From Patescibacteria group bacterium (lineage in GTDB: Bacteria; Patescibacteriota; Patescibacteriia; UM-FILTER-42-10), in contig JBAYGC010000003.1 of the NCBI GenBank assembly GCA_041666845.1, positions 25,007-89,006 of the forward strand: a stretch of 64,000 nucleotides of DNA, read 5' to 3'. Below, in pieces: positions 2,920-42,078 of the stretch. The translations under genes were made by a program, and so were the position numbers. Numbering within the stretch: position 1 is the first letter of the stretch; every line of letters starts with the position of its first letter. A model generated the notes under the pieces. It did not search any database. It saw nothing but the letters and a program-made list of their open reading frames with translations, and was not told the DNA's origin.

Positions 2920-3444
2920 TTATGCTTTTTGCTCTTTAATGGCGTTTAGCGCATAGATGAACCCGCGCATATTGCCCTGCAGAACATTGACGATACCGAC
3001 CAGCGGTGCACGCAGACTACCGACGACCTGTGCCAATAGCTGTTCACGGCTCGGCAGGTTCGCCAGTTCCATTACTTTCGCCTGTTCTATATAACTGCCT
3101 TCCAGTATTCCGCCCAGGATCTGCAAAGTAACATTGTCTTTTTGGAATTTCTTCAGGATTCTGGCTGGAGCGACTTCGTCTTTGAAACCCATTGCAACTG
3201 CAATCTGCCCGTCCAAACCTTTGATATCCATTCCCTCAAGCTTCACTTCATCCAAAGCCCGCTTGATCAGGGTCTTTTTCGCGACATTGCATTCTACTTC
3301 TTCATCGCGGAGCAGTTGGCGCAAGTTTTCGAAACTCTTTACGTTTAAACCGGAATAGTTAATAAAAACAGCGGATTTCATTCCCGAAAGCCTCTCTACC
3401 AGTGTTTTTACTATTTCTTCCTTTTGTACTCGTGTTTTAGGCAT
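2920..3444 (-). CDS. rplJ: 50S ribosomal protein L10
   Basis: 174 aa, adjacent to and upstream of rplL in the conserved order; L10-like sequence (VFINYSGLNV..AKKTLIKRAL). Confidence 0.85.
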   Translation of the reverse strand: MPKTRVQKEEIVKTLVERLSGMKSAVFINYSGLNVKSFENLRQLLRDEEVECNVAKKTLIKRALDEVKLEGMDIKGLDGQIAVAMGFKDEVAPARILKKFQKDNVTLQILGGILEGSYIEQAKVMELANLPSREQLLAQVVGSLRAPLVGIVNVLQGNMRGFIYALNAIKEQKA

Positions 3445-4551: not shown

Positions 4552-5601
4552 TCAATCTAAATATTTTGCTTTATTTTGCAGATGCTCGTCATAGGTCTTG
4601 CTGAATACTGTGGTGCCATCTTCTTTGGTTAAGAAATATAAATAGTCGCTGTCCTCTGGATAAATGGTAGCCACGATCGAATCCATCCCCGGATTGGAAA
4701 TCGGTCCCGGTGGCAGTCCCCGGTTCTCGTAAGTGTTGTATGGATTTTGAATTTCCGTATCGGCAAAAGTCGGTTGCAATGCACTTTTGCCCGTAATGTA
4801 GTTTACCGTCGCATCAGACTCCAGCGGAATTTCGTTTGCCATGCGCGTATAAAATATTCCGGCTGCTATTTTCTTATCCGCGGTCGTGCGCACTTCTTTT
4901 TCCACGATACTGGCTAAAGTAATAATATCATAAATAGTTTTTCCCTGACGTGAAATTTCGTCCCGCATCTCCTGTGTGAGCTTCACATCAAAGTTGTCCA
5001 GCATTTTTTCGATCAGGTGCGCCGGGTCAGAGTTTTTAAAAATACGGTAAGTGTCCGGAAAGAGAAATCCCTCCAGCCCCTGATCCACCGGCTTGCTCGA
5101 AAGGAAGTCGTAGGTTTTGTCCGGAATGATTGAATGTGAATCAACAGTATTCACGACCGTTAAAAATTCATCAATATATTCGCTTTTGGATATTTTTCCG
5201 TCAGCCTCGGCAAAATCCGCCATGTATGTCGCAATCTCGGTACTGGACCAGCCTTCCACAATTGTTACCAGTCGTTCCCTGGACAGTGCGTCGCCGGACA
5301 CCAGCAGATTTGCCAGCTCCATCATGTTCAGATTCTGCGGAATATAATAATCCCCTGCCTTCAACTTGCTTTCATAATGTTTGAGCCAGATATAAGTGCG
5401 GAATATAAAATCATTTCTGCTCAGACCCTCCGTCTCCAGATTAGCACTGATTTTTTTTACACCTTCGCCGGATTCAATGATAAAAAGTTTTGCCTCAGCA
5501 TCGCTGGTTGCTTTGGCATTGATCTGATAATTAAAATAAAACAAGCCGGCCAAGCCGATAAGTATTATGATGCTGATAATAAAGAGTACAATTTTTTTCA
5601 T
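4552..5601 (-). CDS. mltG: endolytic murein transglycosylase MltG (YceG family)
   Basis: N-terminal TM anchor, conserved GLPPGPISNPG block and YceG-like length (349 aa). Confidence 0.8.
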   Translation of the reverse strand: MKKIVLFIISIIILIGLAGLFYFNYQINAKATSDAEAKLFIIESGEGVKKISANLETEGLSRNDFIFRTYIWLKHYESKLKAGDYYIPQNLNMMELANLLVSGDALSRERLVTIVEGWSSTEIATYMADFAEADGKISKSEYIDEFLTVVNTVDSHSIIPDKTYDFLSSKPVDQGLEGFLFPDTYRIFKNSDPAHLIEKMLDNFDVKLTQEMRDEISRQGKTIYDIITLASIVEKEVRTTADKKIAAGIFYTRMANEIPLESDATVNYITGKSALQPTFADTEIQNPYNTYENRGLPPGPISNPGMDSIVATIYPEDSDYLYFLTKEDGTTVFSKTYDEHLQNKAKYLD

Positions 5602-5678
5602 CCCGTTAGAAATTCCTGTATTTAGTAATAAAATATATTCCCGTATCCCACCCGTTAGTAATGATAATTTCTAACGGG
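5602..5678 (-). promoter_or_regulatory. 5' leader of mltG carrying the inverted repeat CCCGTTAGAAATT ... AATTTCTAACGGG (plus an internal CCCGTTAG), ending directly at the ATG
   Basis: Half-sites at 5602-5614, 5651-5658 and 5666-5678; the same architecture is found at asnS (52565-52656). Confidence 0.45.
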
Positions 5679-5729
5679 ATTCATCCGATATTAATTTCTA
5701 GATTAATTATAAATGATATTCTCTAACGT

Positions 5730-6818
5730 TTATAGGTATTTTTCGTTCTCTTTGTTCTTCTGCAATTCTTCTACAATCTTCTTCGCTTCATCCGACCGTT
5801 CTCTGGGGCACACCAGCAGTGCGTCATCCGTATCAATAATCACCATGTCATCCAGACCAATGGTGGCAATAACTTTATCTTTATTTCCGTAGATCATGCA
5901 GTCGGTAGTGTCCATGGGTATTACATTTCCTTTTACTAAATTGTCACCCTGATTGTTTGGTAATAGATCTTTGATCGTATGCCATTTGCCCAGATCGCTC
6001 CAGCCGATTCGATTGGAAACACACATCGCTATTTTTTCTGCCTTGTCGGTGATGGCAGTTTCGATCGACATTTTTTCCAGCGCAGAATATATTTCAGCAA
6101 TCTTCTCTTCCTGTCCACCAAGTTTCAAAAGCTCCACAATCTCCCGGCACGCTTCCAGTATTGCCGGCTGGTATTTTTCAAATAATTTAATAATTGTTGA
6201 GAGTTGCCAGATGTACATGCCGGTGTGGTAGAAGTAACGGCCGGAAGCAATCAGCTCTTTGCAATAATCCAGATCCGGCTTCTCCACCCAGTCCGCAACT
6301 TTAAATATCGCTTCTTCCCCTTTTTCCTGCAGTACGTCTCCGGATTTAATATAACTGTATCCGGTGTCCGGGTAGTTCGGTTTGATCCCCGGCGTCATAA
6401 TGTATTCCGGATTTTCTTTCAGGAAAATTTCCGCGGTCTGAAGCAAAGTTCGGAAAGCTTCCGGGTCGGTGATGTAATCATCAGACGGCAAACTGGCGAC
6501 TACTTCATGATCCGAAAACCGCTCCGCGATCAGAACGCTCTCCAGACAAATCGCCGGTCCAGTATTCTTGCTGGCGGATTCCGGAATAATATTTTTTTCG
6601 GAAACATTCGGCAAATATTTTTTTACCAGATGCTTCACCGATTCATTGACTGAAATAAAAAGATCGTCCTCAATATTTATTAAAGGGGCGATTCTGTCTT
6701 GTGTGTCCTGAATTAAAGCTTTGTCGCTGGCGATTGCCTGAAACTGTTTCGGATTATTTTTTCTGCTGAGAGGCCACAGCCTGGTACCTACTCCGCCGGC
6801 GCGAATAACTATCTTCAT
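5730..6818 (-). CDS. manC: mannose-1-phosphate guanylyltransferase (sugar nucleotidyltransferase, GDP-mannose pyrophosphorylase-like)
   Basis: N-terminal IRAGGVGTRLWPLSR nucleotidyltransferase motif; 362 aa, ManC/CpsB-like. Confidence 0.7.
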   Translation of the reverse strand: MKIVIRAGGVGTRLWPLSRKNNPKQFQAIASDKALIQDTQDRIAPLINIEDDLFISVNESVKHLVKKYLPNVSEKNIIPESASKNTGPAICLESVLIAERFSDHEVVASLPSDDYITDPEAFRTLLQTAEIFLKENPEYIMTPGIKPNYPDTGYSYIKSGDVLQEKGEEAIFKVADWVEKPDLDYCKELIASGRYFYHTGMYIWQLSTIIKLFEKYQPAILEACREIVELLKLGGQEEKIAEIYSALEKMSIETAITDKAEKIAMCVSNRIGWSDLGKWHTIKDLLPNNQGDNLVKGNVIPMDTTDCMIYGNKDKVIATIGLDDMVIIDTDDALLVCPRERSDEAKKIVEELQKNKENEKYL

Positions 6819-13296: not shown

Positions 13297-13316
13297 GCTA
13301 GAATCTTCGGACTTTA

Positions 13317-13357
13317 AACACCCCCACACCCATTAATGGGTTTGGGGGTGTTTTGAT
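13317..13357 (+). terminator. rho-independent terminator of the first giant gene
   Basis: aaCACCCCCACACCC-atta-aTGGGTTTGGGGGTGtttt hairpin plus T-run, 20 nt after the stop. Confidence 0.7.
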
Positions 13358-18320: not shown

Positions 18321-18360
18321 AGATCTTATCTCAACCTCAATTAATCGGTTCGGGGGTTGA

Positions 18361-18417
18361 CCCCGTTAGAGGATTTCCTCTAACGGGGTTGACAAATATT
18401 TTATTATATGGTAATAT
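18361..18417 (+). promoter_or_regulatory. perfect 12-bp inverted repeat CCCCGTTAGAGG-ATTT-CCTCTAACGGGG abutting a sigma70-like promoter (-35 TTGACA 18389-18394, 17-nt spacer, -10 TAATAT 18412-18417) of the receiver gene; flanked by direct GGGGTTGAC repeats
   Basis: Seen directly in sequence. The palindrome shares its CCCGTTAG/CTAACGGG half-sites with the mltG and asnS leaders. Confidence 0.5.
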
Positions 18418-41289: not shown

Positions 41290-41393
41290 TCTGTATTTTT
41301 TATGTATTCCGATTATATCACAAATTTTGTGATAAAGTCAACCCCGTTTTAGACGGGGTATAAGGGTGTTTGGTATCACTTTTAGTGAAGTAA

Positions 41394-41885
41394 TTATCCC
41401 AAGATTTGGAGGACTTCAGCAAATGGCATAATCATACCGTCAACAAGGGGTTGCAACCCCTTGTTGCATGGCAAATTGTGCTTCTCTCTATTATATTGGA
41501 TGTACTCTATAGTATTCATCATTTGCTCATCACTTTCTATGGGCGTATAGCTATATTTCTGTGCCCAAAGGTGAAATTCTTCCTTGTAACCATGCTTGTG
41601 TTTATAGAGCTGGGCTGATTTTCCTTTAAACTTCCTAATAATATTGTCTTTCTCTAACTCAGTACATAACAAAATCATATGGACATGATCGCGACAAATA
41701 TTATAGGCAATCACTCGCAGTTCTTCTTCGTGTACCATGTGAGCAATATATCTAGTTATCTCAACCTCATCATCATTATTCAATACCACCGGCTCACCTC
41801 TCTTTACACCAAATTGAACCATCCTTTCGCTCACTCGGCTATTATGAGTTACCCAGGTTATGTGATAAGGCAATAAATCTTCCAT
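41394..41885 (-). CDS. tnpA: IS200/IS605-family Y1 (HuH) transposase TnpA / RAYT-like
   Basis: YHITWVTHNSR N-terminus, HuH motif DHVHMILL, C-terminal FKGKSAQLY..HGY..EFHLWAQKYSYT..IEYIQYN matching the TnpA catalytic-Tyr region; 163 aa. Confidence 0.75.
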   Translation of the reverse strand: MEDLLPYHITWVTHNSRVSERMVQFGVKRGEPVVLNNDDEVEITRYIAHMVHEEELRVIAYNICRDHVHMILLCTELEKDNIIRKFKGKSAQLYKHKHGYKEEFHLWAQKYSYTPIESDEQMMNTIEYIQYNREKHNLPCNKGLQPLVDGMIMPFAEVLQILG

Positions 41886-41949
41886 CTCTTTGTTTTTGAT
41901 AAAACTTCTCGATAATCATACAGTCAACAAGGGGTTGCAACCCCTTGTT
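41429..41949 (-). mobile_element. minimal IS200/IS605-like element (tnpA only) bounded by 37-bp direct repeats, each containing the perfect hairpin CAACAAGGGGTTGCAACCCCTTGTTG; abuts the 3' end of tRNA-Glu
   Basis: ataatcatacCgtcaacaaggggttgcaaccccttgtt (41429-41465) versus ataatcatacAgtcaacaaggggttgcaaccccttgtt (41913-41949). Confidence 0.65.
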
Positions 41950-41953
41950 ACTC

Positions 41954-42028
41954 TGGTACCGCCTAGGGGAATCGAACCCCTGTTGCCAGGATGAGAACCT
42001 GGCGTCCTAACCACTAGACGAAGGCGGC
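41954..42028 (-). tRNA. tRNA-Glu (anticodon CUC)
   Basis: GCCGCCT-TC-GTCT-AGTGGTT-AGGAC-G-CCAGG-TTCTCAT-CCTGG-CAAC-AGGGG-TTCGATT-CCCCT-AGGCGGT-A-CCA; 75 nt. Confidence 0.85.
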
Positions 42029-42078
42029 ACAAAAGGCAGGGAGTAGTTTAACACACCCTGCCTTATAATTTCAAGTTT

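What the first reader, a model, noticed from the sequence alone, without database searches (positions are those of the whole stretch)
41394..42028. Minimal IS200/IS605-like (Y1/HuH transposase) element inserted directly 3' of tRNA-Glu, bounded by identical REP-like hairpins
A 163-aa HuH/Y1 transposase (DHVHMILL; FHLWAQKYSYT) is flanked by 37-bp direct repeats that differ at one base. Each repeat contains the perfect palindrome CAACAAGGGGTTGCAACCCCTTGTTG (41441-41466 and 41925-41949). The distal copy ends 5 nt from the tRNA-Glu 3' end, and the proximal copy lies inside the last codons of tnpA. At about 520 bp this is smaller than typical IS200 (~700 bp), and it has the REP/RAYT-like property that the same hairpin bounds both sides. 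The element is probably still mobile and could be the source of hairpin repeats elsewhere in the genome.
Basis: partly seen in the sequence, partly recalled or inferred. Interest (0 to 1): 0.6.

Follow-up and report, generated by a model that had tools for sequence, protein, structure and literature searches.

The report
Hairpin-flanked Y1 transposase module beside tRNA-Glu
A roughly 580-bp piece of acquired DNA next to a tRNA gene encodes a small single-strand-DNA transposase flanked by two copies of a hairpin that relatives of this enzyme keep almost unchanged across many bacterial phyla, and in most other genomes the same enzyme sits in-frame inside a restriction-modification gene.

Summary
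ORF 41394-41885(-) is a Y1/HUH transposase: Pfam Y1_Tnp 44.8 bits against a cutoff of 23, and the predicted fold matches IS200/ISDra2/IS608 TnpA. Two 38-nt direct repeats with one mismatch each contain the palindrome AACAAGGGGTTGCAACCCCTTGTT.

Close relatives of this genome (80-97% GAPDH identity) have the same GAPDH-tRNA-Glu-115aa locus without the element. It is therefore a 578-583 bp insertion, bracketed by TACCA.

It is not a typical IS200, and it is not a classical RAYT either. It misses both NCBIfam cutoffs, its motifs (DHVH / LWAQK / YxxxNRxKH) fit no described subclass cleanly, and it is single-copy here.

The hairpin belongs to the whole protein family. I found 205 copies in 628 kb of homologous loci against 2 in shuffled sequence, with covariation in the stem. 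Codon choice is fixed where the hairpin encodes NKGLQPLV. Copies are also scattered on virus-like contigs that carry no Y1 gene.

In 52 of 80 species-level loci the whole Y1 protein lies in-frame inside the methyltransferase domain of a Type IIG (MmeI/Eco57I-like) restriction enzyme, always at the same site. I found no description of this arrangement in the literature available to me.

Verdict: real mobile module, new variant of a known kind. tRNA adjacency is incidental.

The parts
41394..41885 (-). Y1/HUH single-strand DNA transposase gene, 163 aa. HUH = H67-V-H69. Catalytic Y128, with N132 as the likely third metal ligand.
   Evidence: ORF. Pfam Y1_Tnp 44.8 bits, cutoff 23. Family-invariant residues. 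PDB profile hits ISDra2 and IS608 TnpA. AlphaFold pLDDT 89.8, and the 30 best Foldseek hits are Y1 transposases.
41925..41949 (.). Hairpin A, upstream of the gene and 4 nt from the tRNA 3' end. Perfect palindrome 41926-41949.
   Evidence: The same hairpin is found upstream of the gene in many homologous loci.
41441..41466 (.). Hairpin B, a perfect 26-nt palindrome overprinted on codons 141-148 (NKGLQPLV).
   Evidence: An in-frame C-terminal hairpin is present in 59 of 81 loci. Codon-level constraint.
41912..41949 (.). Distal copy of the 38-nt direct repeat: hairpin plus a 13-14 nt extension (GACTGTATGATTAT on the gene strand).
41428..41465 (.). Proximal copy of the 38-nt direct repeat (extension GACGGTATGATTAT, coding for DGMIM).
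   Evidence: The 14-nt extension does not recur elsewhere in the window within 2 mismatches as a true copy.
41376..41953 (-). Inserted segment relative to the empty sites of related genomes: 578 nt, or 583 nt counting one TACCA.
   Evidence: Empty sites in L081, L083/84, L086 and L090/91. In every relative the sequence after the tRNA reads TACCA|A(A/T)..., as it does after 41371-41375 in the window.
41371..41375 (-). Second copy of TACCA at the right edge of the insert. It repeats the tRNA 3' end TACCA at 41954-41958.
   Evidence: Read directly. Interpreting it as a target duplication or an element end is inference.
41954..42028 (-). tRNA-Glu(CTC) with encoded CCA. It is the insertion-site neighbour, not part of the element.
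   Evidence: ARAGORN and Rfam tRNA 63.4 bits. Present without the element in relatives.

Best explanation
Window 41371/41376-41953 is a horizontally acquired mobile module inserted just 3' of the CCA end of tRNA-Glu(CTC). It encodes an intact one-domain Y1/HUH single-strand-DNA transposase from a small subclass that is so far unclassified. It also carries two copies of that subclass's cognate DNA hairpin: one at the left edge, and one written into the last codons of the gene itself (NKGLQPLV).

Most likely mechanism (inferred by analogy with IS200/IS605 TnpA and TnpA-REP): a dimer of the protein recognises the folded hairpin on single-stranded DNA, for example the lagging-strand template. It cleaves beside the hairpin through Y128, forming a 5'-phosphotyrosine link with metal held by H67, H69 and N132, and then rejoins the strands. 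This would move the module. In other hosts it would also spread solo hairpins in trans, in a REP/RAYT-like manner.

In this genome window the module is single-copy and its hairpin has not spread.

Shown: protein family, fold and catalytic residues; hairpin conservation, covariation and nucleotide-level selection; presence/absence polymorphism and a remnant in a sister strain; dispersal of hairpins without the gene elsewhere.

Inferred: ssDNA cleavage, the exact cleavage sites, current activity, and the strand used.
For: Protein: Pfam Y1_Tnp 44.8 bits. The family profile hits ISDra2 TnpA at 8.6e-7 and IS608 TnpA at 3.5e-5, with Y128 aligned to their catalytic Tyr helix. AF2 model pLDDT 89.8, and the top 30 Foldseek hits are all IS200/ISDra2/IS608/TnpA-REP. 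H67, H69, Y128 and N132 are invariant across 23 diverse homologues.

Hairpin is a family trait: 205 hairpins in 628 kb of 81 loci against 2 in shuffles, peaking just upstream of the gene, at its C-terminal codons and just downstream.

Nucleotide-level selection: of 31 loci encoding KGLQPL, 25 use exactly AAGGGGTTGCAACCCCTT and 2 carry the compensatory CTG/CAG pair. Background codon frequencies predict about 7e-4 per locus.

Stem covariation: 91.6% of cells paired against 83.1% in shuffles; 91 double-change cells against 22; 0 of 500 shuffles reach the observed values. The central two bases are loop-like.

Insertion: relatives with 97, 94, 84 and 80% identical GAPDH have GAPDH-tRNA-Glu-promoter-115aa with no Y1 and no hairpin.

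Remnant: a 96% relative keeps only hairpin B plus the ORF tail. Homology to the window starts exactly at the hairpin foot (41465), and unrelated ORFs lie to its left.

Action in trans: 34 viral-contig stretches carry the exact hairpin, up to at least 6 per 36.9-kb contig, yet no viral contig encodes a relative of the protein.

Closer homologues (61-65% identity) have the same design.
Against: No second copy of the gene or the hairpin exists in 64 kb, and no other WIN-type copy turned up in the metagenome scan, so current mobility is unproven.

The geometry differs from IS608. If the whole ORF belongs to the element, the right edge lies about 70 nt beyond hairpin B, and the insert is bracketed by a 5-nt repeat (TACCA), whereas IS200/IS605 elements make no target duplication.

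Both NCBIfam equivalog cutoffs are missed.

No close (>66% identity) relatives exist in any collection searched, so there is no sign of recent spread.

No promoter of its own was found.
Confidence: 0.62

Rival explanations
1. It is a classical autonomous IS200/IS605-family insertion sequence, a minimal IS200. It would transpose by peel-and-paste, with hairpin A and hairpin B as its LE and RE.
For: Y1 transposase fold, with closest sequence similarity to ISDra2/IS608 TnpA rather than TnpA-REP (0.32). DHVH motif as in class 1 (PMC6006769, Table 1). Hairpins in direct orientation at both ends. Presence/absence polymorphism.
Against: NCBIfam transpos_IS200 scores 41.8 against a cutoff of 55. The Y motif is YxxxN, not Y[IV]ENQ, and the W motif is WA, not W[TS]. 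Single copy in the window, and 80 loci come from 79 assemblies, whereas IS200 averages 4.8 near-identical copies per genome. A TACCA repeat flanks the insert. A unit bounded by the direct repeats (41428-41949) would leave the last 11 codons outside the element. The identical hairpin is shared by proteins only 40-60% identical across phyla, which is unlike IS-specific ends.
Confidence: 0.2
2. It is a domesticated, RAYT-like host gene in a REPtron-like arrangement. It no longer moves itself. Instead it maintains or processes REP-like hairpins for the host.
For: Single copy flanked by its cognate hairpins. JGI annotates many members as RayT. Hairpins are dispersed without the gene on other contigs. 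Hairpins are inserted in-frame inside genes, including the Y1 gene itself, as reported for RAYT subclass 2.4 (PMC6006769).
Against: NCBIfam REP_Tyr_transpos scores 41.6 against a cutoff of 80. There is no Y---NP motif, and the hairpin has no GT[AG]G foot. The gene is absent from a relative with 97% identical GAPDH and from four further relatives, so it is not vertically inherited here. Only two hairpins occur in 64 kb, both at the gene.
Confidence: 0.2
3. It is an inactive relic: a Y1 domain that broke away from a Type IIG restriction-modification/Y1 fusion gene and landed here by illegitimate recombination. The duplicated hairpin would be a by-product.
For: The closest relative in GTDB genomes (L001, 66% identity) is embedded in an Eco57I/MmeI-like ORF. 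52 of 80 loci are embedded. Stand-alone and embedded forms interleave in the tree.
Against: The ORF has a clean start and stop, and all family-invariant residues are present. No RM-like sequence occurs anywhere in the 64-kb window. 23 of 80 loci from many phyla are likewise free-standing with flanking hairpins. The two repeats are 97% identical, which argues for recent formation or maintenance.
Confidence: 0.1
4. The hairpins are ordinary transcription signals, such as a terminator after the tRNA and an RNA-level regulator, duplicated by chance.
For: Hairpin A lies directly after the tRNA, and a GC-rich stem could pause or stop read-through.
Against: No T-tract follows, and the scan finds no terminator-like site. 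There is no Rfam match. The same palindrome travels with this protein family across phyla, inside coding sequence and with fixed codons.
Confidence: 0.03

Closest known systems
IS200/IS605-family TnpA elements (IS200, IS608, ISDra2; TnpA_Y1 subclass 1.1)
   Same: One-domain HUH/Y1 fold, a DH[VI]H motif, and a catalytic Tyr on the C-terminal helix with a polar ligand four residues later. DNA hairpins of the same orientation lie near both ends. The element is present or absent between strains.
   Different: Y---N-R-x-K-H instead of Y-[IV]-E-N-Q, and WA instead of W[TS]. It scores below the NCBIfam cutoff. It is single-copy, has no tnpB, and a 5-nt repeat flanks the insert. One hairpin lies inside the coding sequence about 70 nt from the end. 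The hairpin sequence is shared across the whole subclass and across phyla rather than being element-specific.
RAYT / TnpA-REP with REP/REPIN sequences (TnpA_Y1 class 2; E. coli TnpA-REP, PDB 4er8)
   Same: A single-copy Y1 gene is flanked by its cognate palindromes. Solo palindromes are scattered on DNA that lacks the gene. Palindromes are tolerated in-frame inside genes, as in subclass 2.4.
   Different: There is no Y---NP motif and no GT[AG]G foot on the hairpin. Sequence similarity to 4er8 is weak (E 0.32). The gene is not vertically inherited at this locus. REP sequences are normally species-specific, whereas this hairpin is nearly invariant from Patescibacteria to Bacteroidota, Spirochaetota and Deinococcota.
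TnpA_Y1 subclass 1.2 of Quentin et al. 2018 (PMC6006769)
   Same: A DH[IV]H motif, a Y motif followed by basic/His residues (YIKNQKEHH against YIxxNRxKH), a conserved short C-terminal tail, low copy number, and occurrence in Bacteroidetes.
   Different: Subclass 1.2 has WQ and Y---Q, and is reported without associated hairpins. I could not compare sequences directly, so membership is untested.
Rickettsia palindromic elements and in-frame REP insertions
   Same: Palindromic repeats that survive inside protein-coding genes because they carry no stop codon. This palindrome is stop-free in all six frames and reads NKGLQPLV on both strands.
   Different: It is much shorter (24-26 nt) and is tied to a specific HUH enzyme.

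Membership tests
Y1/HUH transposase superfamily (Pfam PF01797, TnpA_Y1) | Match to the Y1_Tnp profile above the gathering score | tested here: met
   44.8 bits against 23, residues 34-131.
Y1/HUH transposase superfamily (Pfam PF01797, TnpA_Y1) | HUH motif plus a single catalytic Tyr with a polar residue four positions later | tested here: met
   D66-H67-V68-H69, Y128 and N132 are invariant in alignment A1. Y128 aligns to the ISDra2 catalytic helix.
Y1/HUH transposase superfamily (Pfam PF01797, TnpA_Y1) | TnpA fold (beta-sheet with HUH strand, C-terminal Tyr helix) | tested here: met
   AF2 pLDDT 89.8 and pTM 0.85. The Foldseek top 30 are all Y1 transposases, E 4e-6 to 2e-4.
IS200/IS605 insertion sequences (subclass 1.1) | NCBIfam transpos_IS200 equivalog cutoff | tested here: not met
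   41.8 bits against 55.
IS200/IS605 insertion sequences (subclass 1.1) | Motifs W[TS] and Y[IV]ENQ | tested here: not met
   LWAQK and YIQYNREKH, compared with Table 1 of PMC6006769.
IS200/IS605 insertion sequences (subclass 1.1) | Subterminal hairpins at both ends, same orientation, no terminal inverted repeats | tested here: met
   38-nt direct repeats, each holding the hairpin. No TIR found.
IS200/IS605 insertion sequences (subclass 1.1) | Several near-identical copies per genome | tested here: not met
   One copy in 64 kb. The 80 best GTDB loci come from 79 assemblies. The rest of this genome could not be read.
IS200/IS605 insertion sequences (subclass 1.1) | Insertion 3' of a fixed 4-5 nt target without target duplication | tested here: inconclusive
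   There is one insertion event only. It lies 3' of TACCA, and TACCA recurs at the other edge. This could be a duplication or an element end.
RAYT / TnpA-REP (class 2) | NCBIfam REP_Tyr_transpos equivalog cutoff | tested here: not met
   41.6 bits against 80.
RAYT / TnpA-REP (class 2) | Y---NP motif | tested here: not met
   Y128-I-Q-Y-N132-R133.
RAYT / TnpA-REP (class 2) | Gene flanked by cognate REP palindromes (REPtron) | tested here: met
   Hairpins lie at both sides here and in homologous loci.
RAYT / TnpA-REP (class 2) | REP carries a 5' GT[AG]G foot | tested here: not met
   The consensus is (A/G)(A/G)CAAGGGG..CCCCTTG(T/C)(T/C), with no GTAG.
RAYT / TnpA-REP (class 2) | Many dispersed extragenic copies of the palindrome in the host genome | tested here: inconclusive
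   Not seen in this window: 2 copies, both at the gene. Seen elsewhere: extra copies within 5 kb in many loci and at least 6 per 36.9-kb viral contig lacking the gene.
RAYT / TnpA-REP (class 2) | Vertical inheritance as a single-copy host gene | tested here: not met
   Absent from relatives with 97, 94, 84 and 80% identical GAPDH at the same locus.
TnpA_Y1 subclass 1.2 (Quentin et al. 2018) | DH[IV]H, WQ, YIKNQKEHH, a 30-aa C-terminal tail, and no associated hairpins | tested here: inconclusive
   DHVH and a basic/His tail after Y are shared. WA instead of WQ, N instead of Q and the presence of hairpins differ. No subclass 1.2 sequence was available for direct comparison.

The most novel reading that the evidence does not exclude
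The window gene may be the free-living form of an undescribed kind of HUH element. Its whole transposase, together with a phylum-spanning invariant DNA hairpin, usually lives in-frame inside the catalytic methyltransferase domain of Type IIG (MmeI/Eco57I-like) restriction-modification enzymes. It always sits at the same site, between the FxWxxEFPxIF segment and motif IV. Two readings fit. It could be a DNA-level counterpart of an intein or homing element that uses its host gene for expression and uses hairpins as cassette boundaries. Or it could be a restriction enzyme that has recruited a hairpin-specific ssDNA nuclease.
Probability: 0.3. Interest if true: 0.8.

Novelty: new variant of a known kind. 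Interest (0 to 1): 0.6.

Why it matters
Y1/HUH transposases are the engines of IS200/IS605 elements (the home of TnpB/IscB) and of REP/RAYT systems, and their hairpin recognition is normally element- or species-specific. This small subclass has about 163 clusters at E<=1e-30 among 1.84 billion representatives. It keeps one hairpin nearly unchanged across distant phyla, writes it into its own coding sequence, spreads it in trans in some hosts, and is mostly found fused in-frame into Type IIG restriction-modification genes.

If the fusion is functional, it links ssDNA transposition chemistry to restriction-modification in a way I found no description of. It would also give a compact, well-defined enzyme/hairpin pair for biochemical study. 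For this genome the practical point is modest: a single acquired module in a hypervariable tRNA-Glu hotspot of a Patescibacteria genome.

Tried and rejected
1. tRNA targeting as a family trait. ARAGORN on 60 homologous loci found no tRNA next to the gene, so I rejected it.

2. Known RNA motif. Rfam at E<=10 gives only the tRNA.

3. Terminator role. No terminator-like site was found.

4. Further copies of the WIN-type repeat. The single metagenome scan with hairpin+TTGAC gave 4 loci. Only L095, which is the L082-type remnant, is related. The source contig is not in that collection.

5. Look-up of the exact protein to reach the rest of its 265-kb contig. It is not on record, so the whole-genome hairpin count could not be done.

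6. Literature. No paper in the searchable library contains GGGGTTGCAACCCC or KGLQPLV. None combines PF01797 with PF07669/Eco57I in a relevant way.

7. An apparent inverted copy of the 14-nt extension right after the tRNA in L082 (AATTAATCATAG). I dropped this because the same bases match the ancestral post-tRNA flank of L090 (AATTGATCAC).

8. Y1 relatives on viral contigs: none found.

9. Pfam on the ORFs that replace Y1 in L082, on the ORFs between hairpins in viral contig L105, and on the neighbouring 115-aa protein: no informative hits.

10. A restriction-modification gene in the window: none.
Full report
1. OBSERVATION

The repeats are 38 nt (41428-41465 and 41912-41949) with one mismatch. 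Each contains the palindrome AACAAGGGGTTGCAACCCCTTGTT. The proximal copy is a perfect 26-mer (41441-41466). The distal copy is perfect over 24 nt.

The 25-mer occurs only at these two places in 64 kb, against 0.00 expected. A relaxed scan for CAAGGGG-N6-CCCCTTG finds no further copy.

As single-stranded DNA both copies fold into 10-11 bp stems with a 4-nt loop, -10.8 to -12.7 kcal/mol, z -3.9 to -5.7.

On the gene strand the order is: tRNA-Glu ... ACCA, GAGT, hairpin A plus GACTGTATGATTAT, 26 nt, ATG ... Y1 ... hairpin B (codons 141-148, NKGLQPLV) plus GACGGTATGATTAT, 11 more codons, TAA.

2. THE PROTEIN

Pfam Y1_Tnp scores 44.8 bits against a cutoff of 23. Both NCBIfam equivalogs are missed: IS200 41.8 against 55, and REP-associated tyrosine transposase 41.6 against 80.

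A profile of 23 homologues hits ISDra2 TnpA (8.6e-7), IS608 TnpA (3.5e-5) and, weakly, E. coli TnpA-REP (0.32). Y128 aligns with their catalytic tyrosine helix.

The AlphaFold model has pLDDT 89.8 and pTM 0.85. Its 30 best Foldseek matches in the PDB are all IS200/ISDra2/IS608/TnpA-REP.

H67, H69, W107, Y128 and N132 are invariant. The catalytic tyrosine is therefore Y128, not a tyrosine in FHLWAQKYSYT.

The motif set DHVH / LWAQK / YxxxNRxKH matches none of the 12 subclasses tabulated by Quentin et al. 2018 (PMC6006769). Class 1.1 (IS200) has W[TS] and Y---Q. Class 2 (RAYTs) has Y---NP. Subclass 1.2 (YIKNQKEHH, low copy, no hairpins) is the nearest, but I could not test membership.

The family is small. 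Among 1.84 billion cluster representatives, 163 score E<=1e-30 and 352 score E<=1e-10.

3. THE ELEMENT IS AN INSERTION

Genomes whose GAPDH is 97% (L081), 94% (L083-85, a 1.18-Mb contig), 84% (L086) and 80% (L090-92) identical carry the same GAPDH / tRNA-Glu(CTC) / promoter TTGACT-N18-TATAAT / 115-aa gene / L25 locus. None has the Y1 gene or a hairpin.

In all of them the tRNA end reads TACCA|A(A/T).... In the window that flank (TACCA|AACACCC...) reappears at 41371-41375. The insert is therefore 41376-41953 (578 nt) plus one TACCA. It contains the complete ORF.

A 96% relative (L082, which matches L095) keeps only hairpin B, its 3' extension (GACAGTATGATT) and the tail of the ORF. blastn homology with the window starts exactly at the hairpin foot: 41465 to 40901 matches L082 6631-7185 at 88%. 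To the left of that point L082 has two unrelated ORFs.

The hairpin foot is therefore a rearrangement breakpoint, and the element was present in the common ancestor of these two strains.

I found no other WIN-type copy. The rest of the source contig could not be fetched.

4. THE HAIRPIN BELONGS TO THE PROTEIN FAMILY

A scan of one genome per GTDB species gave 199 confirmed loci. The 80 best come from 79 assemblies spanning Patescibacteria, Methylomirabilis, Deinococcota (Trueperaceae), KSB1, Ignavibacteria, Balneolaceae, Bacteroidota, Spirochaetota, Smithella/Syntrophaceae and others.

These loci plus the window (628 kb) hold 205 hairpins, against 2 in shuffled sequence. The hairpins are concentrated 0-150 nt upstream of the gene, at +380 to +480 (the C-terminal codons) and at +480 to +700.

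Selection acts on the nucleotides. Among 31 loci encoding KGLQPL after the Tyr motif, 25 use exactly AAG GGG TTG CAA CCC CTT, and 2 have the compensatory pair CTG/CAG. Background codon use predicts about 7e-4 per locus.

The two inner stem pairs and the two outer ones were not used for detection. The inner pairs covary through four Watson-Crick pair types each (UA/CG/GC/AU) and the outer pairs show fewer alternative types; the central two bases behave as a loop. Overall, 91.6% of cells are paired against 83.1% in shuffles, with 91 double-change cells against 22, and 0 of 500 shuffles reach the observed values.

The palindrome has no stop codon in any frame and reads NKGLQPLV on both strands. 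This explains why copies also sit in-frame at other positions in genes, including inside the Y1 gene itself.

Homologues at 61-65% identity show the same design. L135 has a hairpin 45 nt before the ATG and one in the C-terminal codons. L131 has a C-terminal hairpin with CTG/CAG and a second hairpin 30 nt after the stop.

tRNA adjacency is not a family trait: 0 of 60 loci.

5. HAIRPINS WITHOUT THE GENE

The exact 22-mer occurs in 34 stretches of IMG/VR viral contigs, mostly intergenic. One 36.9-kb contig has at least 6 copies. The extended form GAACAAGGGGTTGCAACCCCTTGTTC is also seen in the Smithella/Syntrophaceae loci. No viral contig encodes a relative of the protein. In some hosts, then, the hairpin spreads in trans, as REP sequences do.

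6. MECHANISM

By analogy with solved TnpA and TnpA-REP complexes, the most likely mechanism runs as follows. A dimer binds the folded hairpin on single-stranded DNA. It cleaves next to the hairpin through Y128, with metal held by H67, H69 and N132, and then rejoins the strands.

This part is inference. The data show an intact enzyme, a co-evolving hairpin under structural and nucleotide selection, a breakpoint at the hairpin foot, and gain or loss of the module between strains.

The geometry does not copy IS608. The right edge lies about 70 nt past hairpin B if the ORF is to stay whole, and TACCA flanks the insert.

No promoter of its own and no terminator were found, so expression probably depends on read-through from the tRNA/GAPDH unit.

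7. CLASSIFICATION AND RIVALS

The element works like both IS200/IS605 and RAYT/REP systems but fails defining tests of each; the membership table lists these.

I favour an acquired, possibly still mobile module of a new TnpA_Y1 subclass (0.62). The rivals are a canonical IS200 (0.2), a domesticated RAYT-like gene (0.2), a relic that escaped from a restriction-modification fusion (0.1), and plain transcription signals (0.03).

8. THE UNEXPECTED FAMILY CONTEXT

In 49 of 80 loci the Y1 reading frame continues for hundreds of codons on both sides. Three more (L011, L023, L031) are the same arrangement broken by stops or frameshifts. Two of these are Gracilibacteria, which probably use an alternative genetic code.

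All 13 host ORFs tested are MmeI/Eco57I-type Type IIG restriction-modification or methyltransferase proteins. The Y1 domain splits the methyltransferase domain: MmeI_Mtase positions about 8-125, then Y1_Tnp, then Eco57I positions about 35-171, then TaqI_C.

The insertion point is always after F[DN]WxxEFPx[IV]F and before motif IV. Uninterrupted relatives lack the insert.

The inserted piece corresponds to the whole stand-alone protein, and the DNA hairpin is still at its 3' end.

Five stand-alone genes lie next to an uninterrupted enzyme of this type, with hairpins between and around the genes (L004, L014, L021, L034, L065). In several embedded loci further hairpins sit just upstream and just downstream of the whole ORF.

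Stand-alone and embedded forms interleave in a neighbour-joining tree, and the window's closest relative (L001, 66%) is embedded.

About 59 of the 150 best representatives are longer than 350 aa.

I found no paper describing this fusion or this hairpin. The one systematic survey discarded 'unexpectedly long proteins' as fusions or annotation errors.

The window itself has no restriction-modification gene.

9. VERDICT

The finding is real. The specific label 'minimal IS200' and the tRNA link are not.

The window copy is a modest single insertion. The family it belongs to is unusual enough to deserve follow-up. Interest 0.6; new variant of a known kind.

Noticed in passing
L024:3306-6965, L047:3306-6983, L029:3297-7334, L056:1956-5306, L068:570-4580, L001:2655-5777, L005:2949-6914 and about 45 further loci: The whole Y1 protein is embedded in-frame in the methyltransferase domain of MmeI/Eco57I-type Type IIG restriction-modification ORFs of 750-1350 aa. 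It always sits after F[DN]WxxEFPx[IV]F and before motif IV, and the DNA hairpin is still at its 3' end. I found no description of this in the searchable literature.
   Followed up: partly
L097-L130 (IMG/VR contigs), e.g. L108 376/3874/4715/9722, L105 967/2688/10788: The exact hairpin (GAACAAGGGGTTGCAACCCCTTGTTC) is scattered, mostly between genes, on virus-like contigs that encode no Y1 relative. Several related contigs of about 10 kb show a 1721-nt unit bounded by hairpins with identical flanks.
   Followed up: partly
L020:1603-1650, L026:5462-5510, L057:4890-4935 and 5455-5500, L064:4840-4885, L029:7363-7410, L016:2368-2415, L097:3878-3925: Many hairpins are followed, 8-15 nt later, by a repeat of only the 3' half-site plus the next few bases (for example TTGCAACCCCTTGTTCTACGA twice). 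This could be a footprint of the cleavage or joining chemistry, or of slippage. It is not present in the window.
   Followed up: no
L003:5527-5900; L013:2310-2530 and 3075-3150: Tandem arrays of the hairpin occur next to the Y1 gene, with a period of about 50 nt and spacers that are themselves repeated.
   Followed up: no
L081:5058-5390, L082:5097-5345 and 5664-5738, L086:5059-5299; window 41954-42078: The GAPDH-tRNA-Glu spacer is hypervariable among close relatives. L086 has a tRNA-Glu gene split after the anticodon stem by an insert that carries a second complete tRNA-Glu. L081 and L082 have a further GC-rich structured insert of about 200-260 nt with no Rfam match. L082 adds a GIY-YIG gene (5389-5655).
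   Followed up: partly
L011:186-2942, L023:1032-4574: In Gracilibacteria the RM-Y1 fusion ORF is interrupted by in-frame stops under table 11, yet RM similarity continues on both sides. This is consistent with the alternative genetic code of that lineage rather than with pseudogenes.
   Followed up: no
L131:3533-3565; window 41428-41440 and 41912-41924; L082:6655-6666: The bases just 3' of the hairpin read TTGACNGT in the window (N = T or G), in the L082 remnant (A) and in a 61%-identical relative's downstream hairpin (C). This may be a conserved flank motif with a free central base.
   Followed up: no
window 13316-13353 and 18360-18389: Other strong palindromes occur in the window (AAACACCCCCACACCCATTAAT/ATTAATGGGTTTGGGGGTGTTT, and a perfect 14-nt inverted repeat ACCCCGTTAGAGGA/TCCTCTAACGGGGT). 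They are unrelated in sequence to the Y1 hairpin.
   Followed up: no
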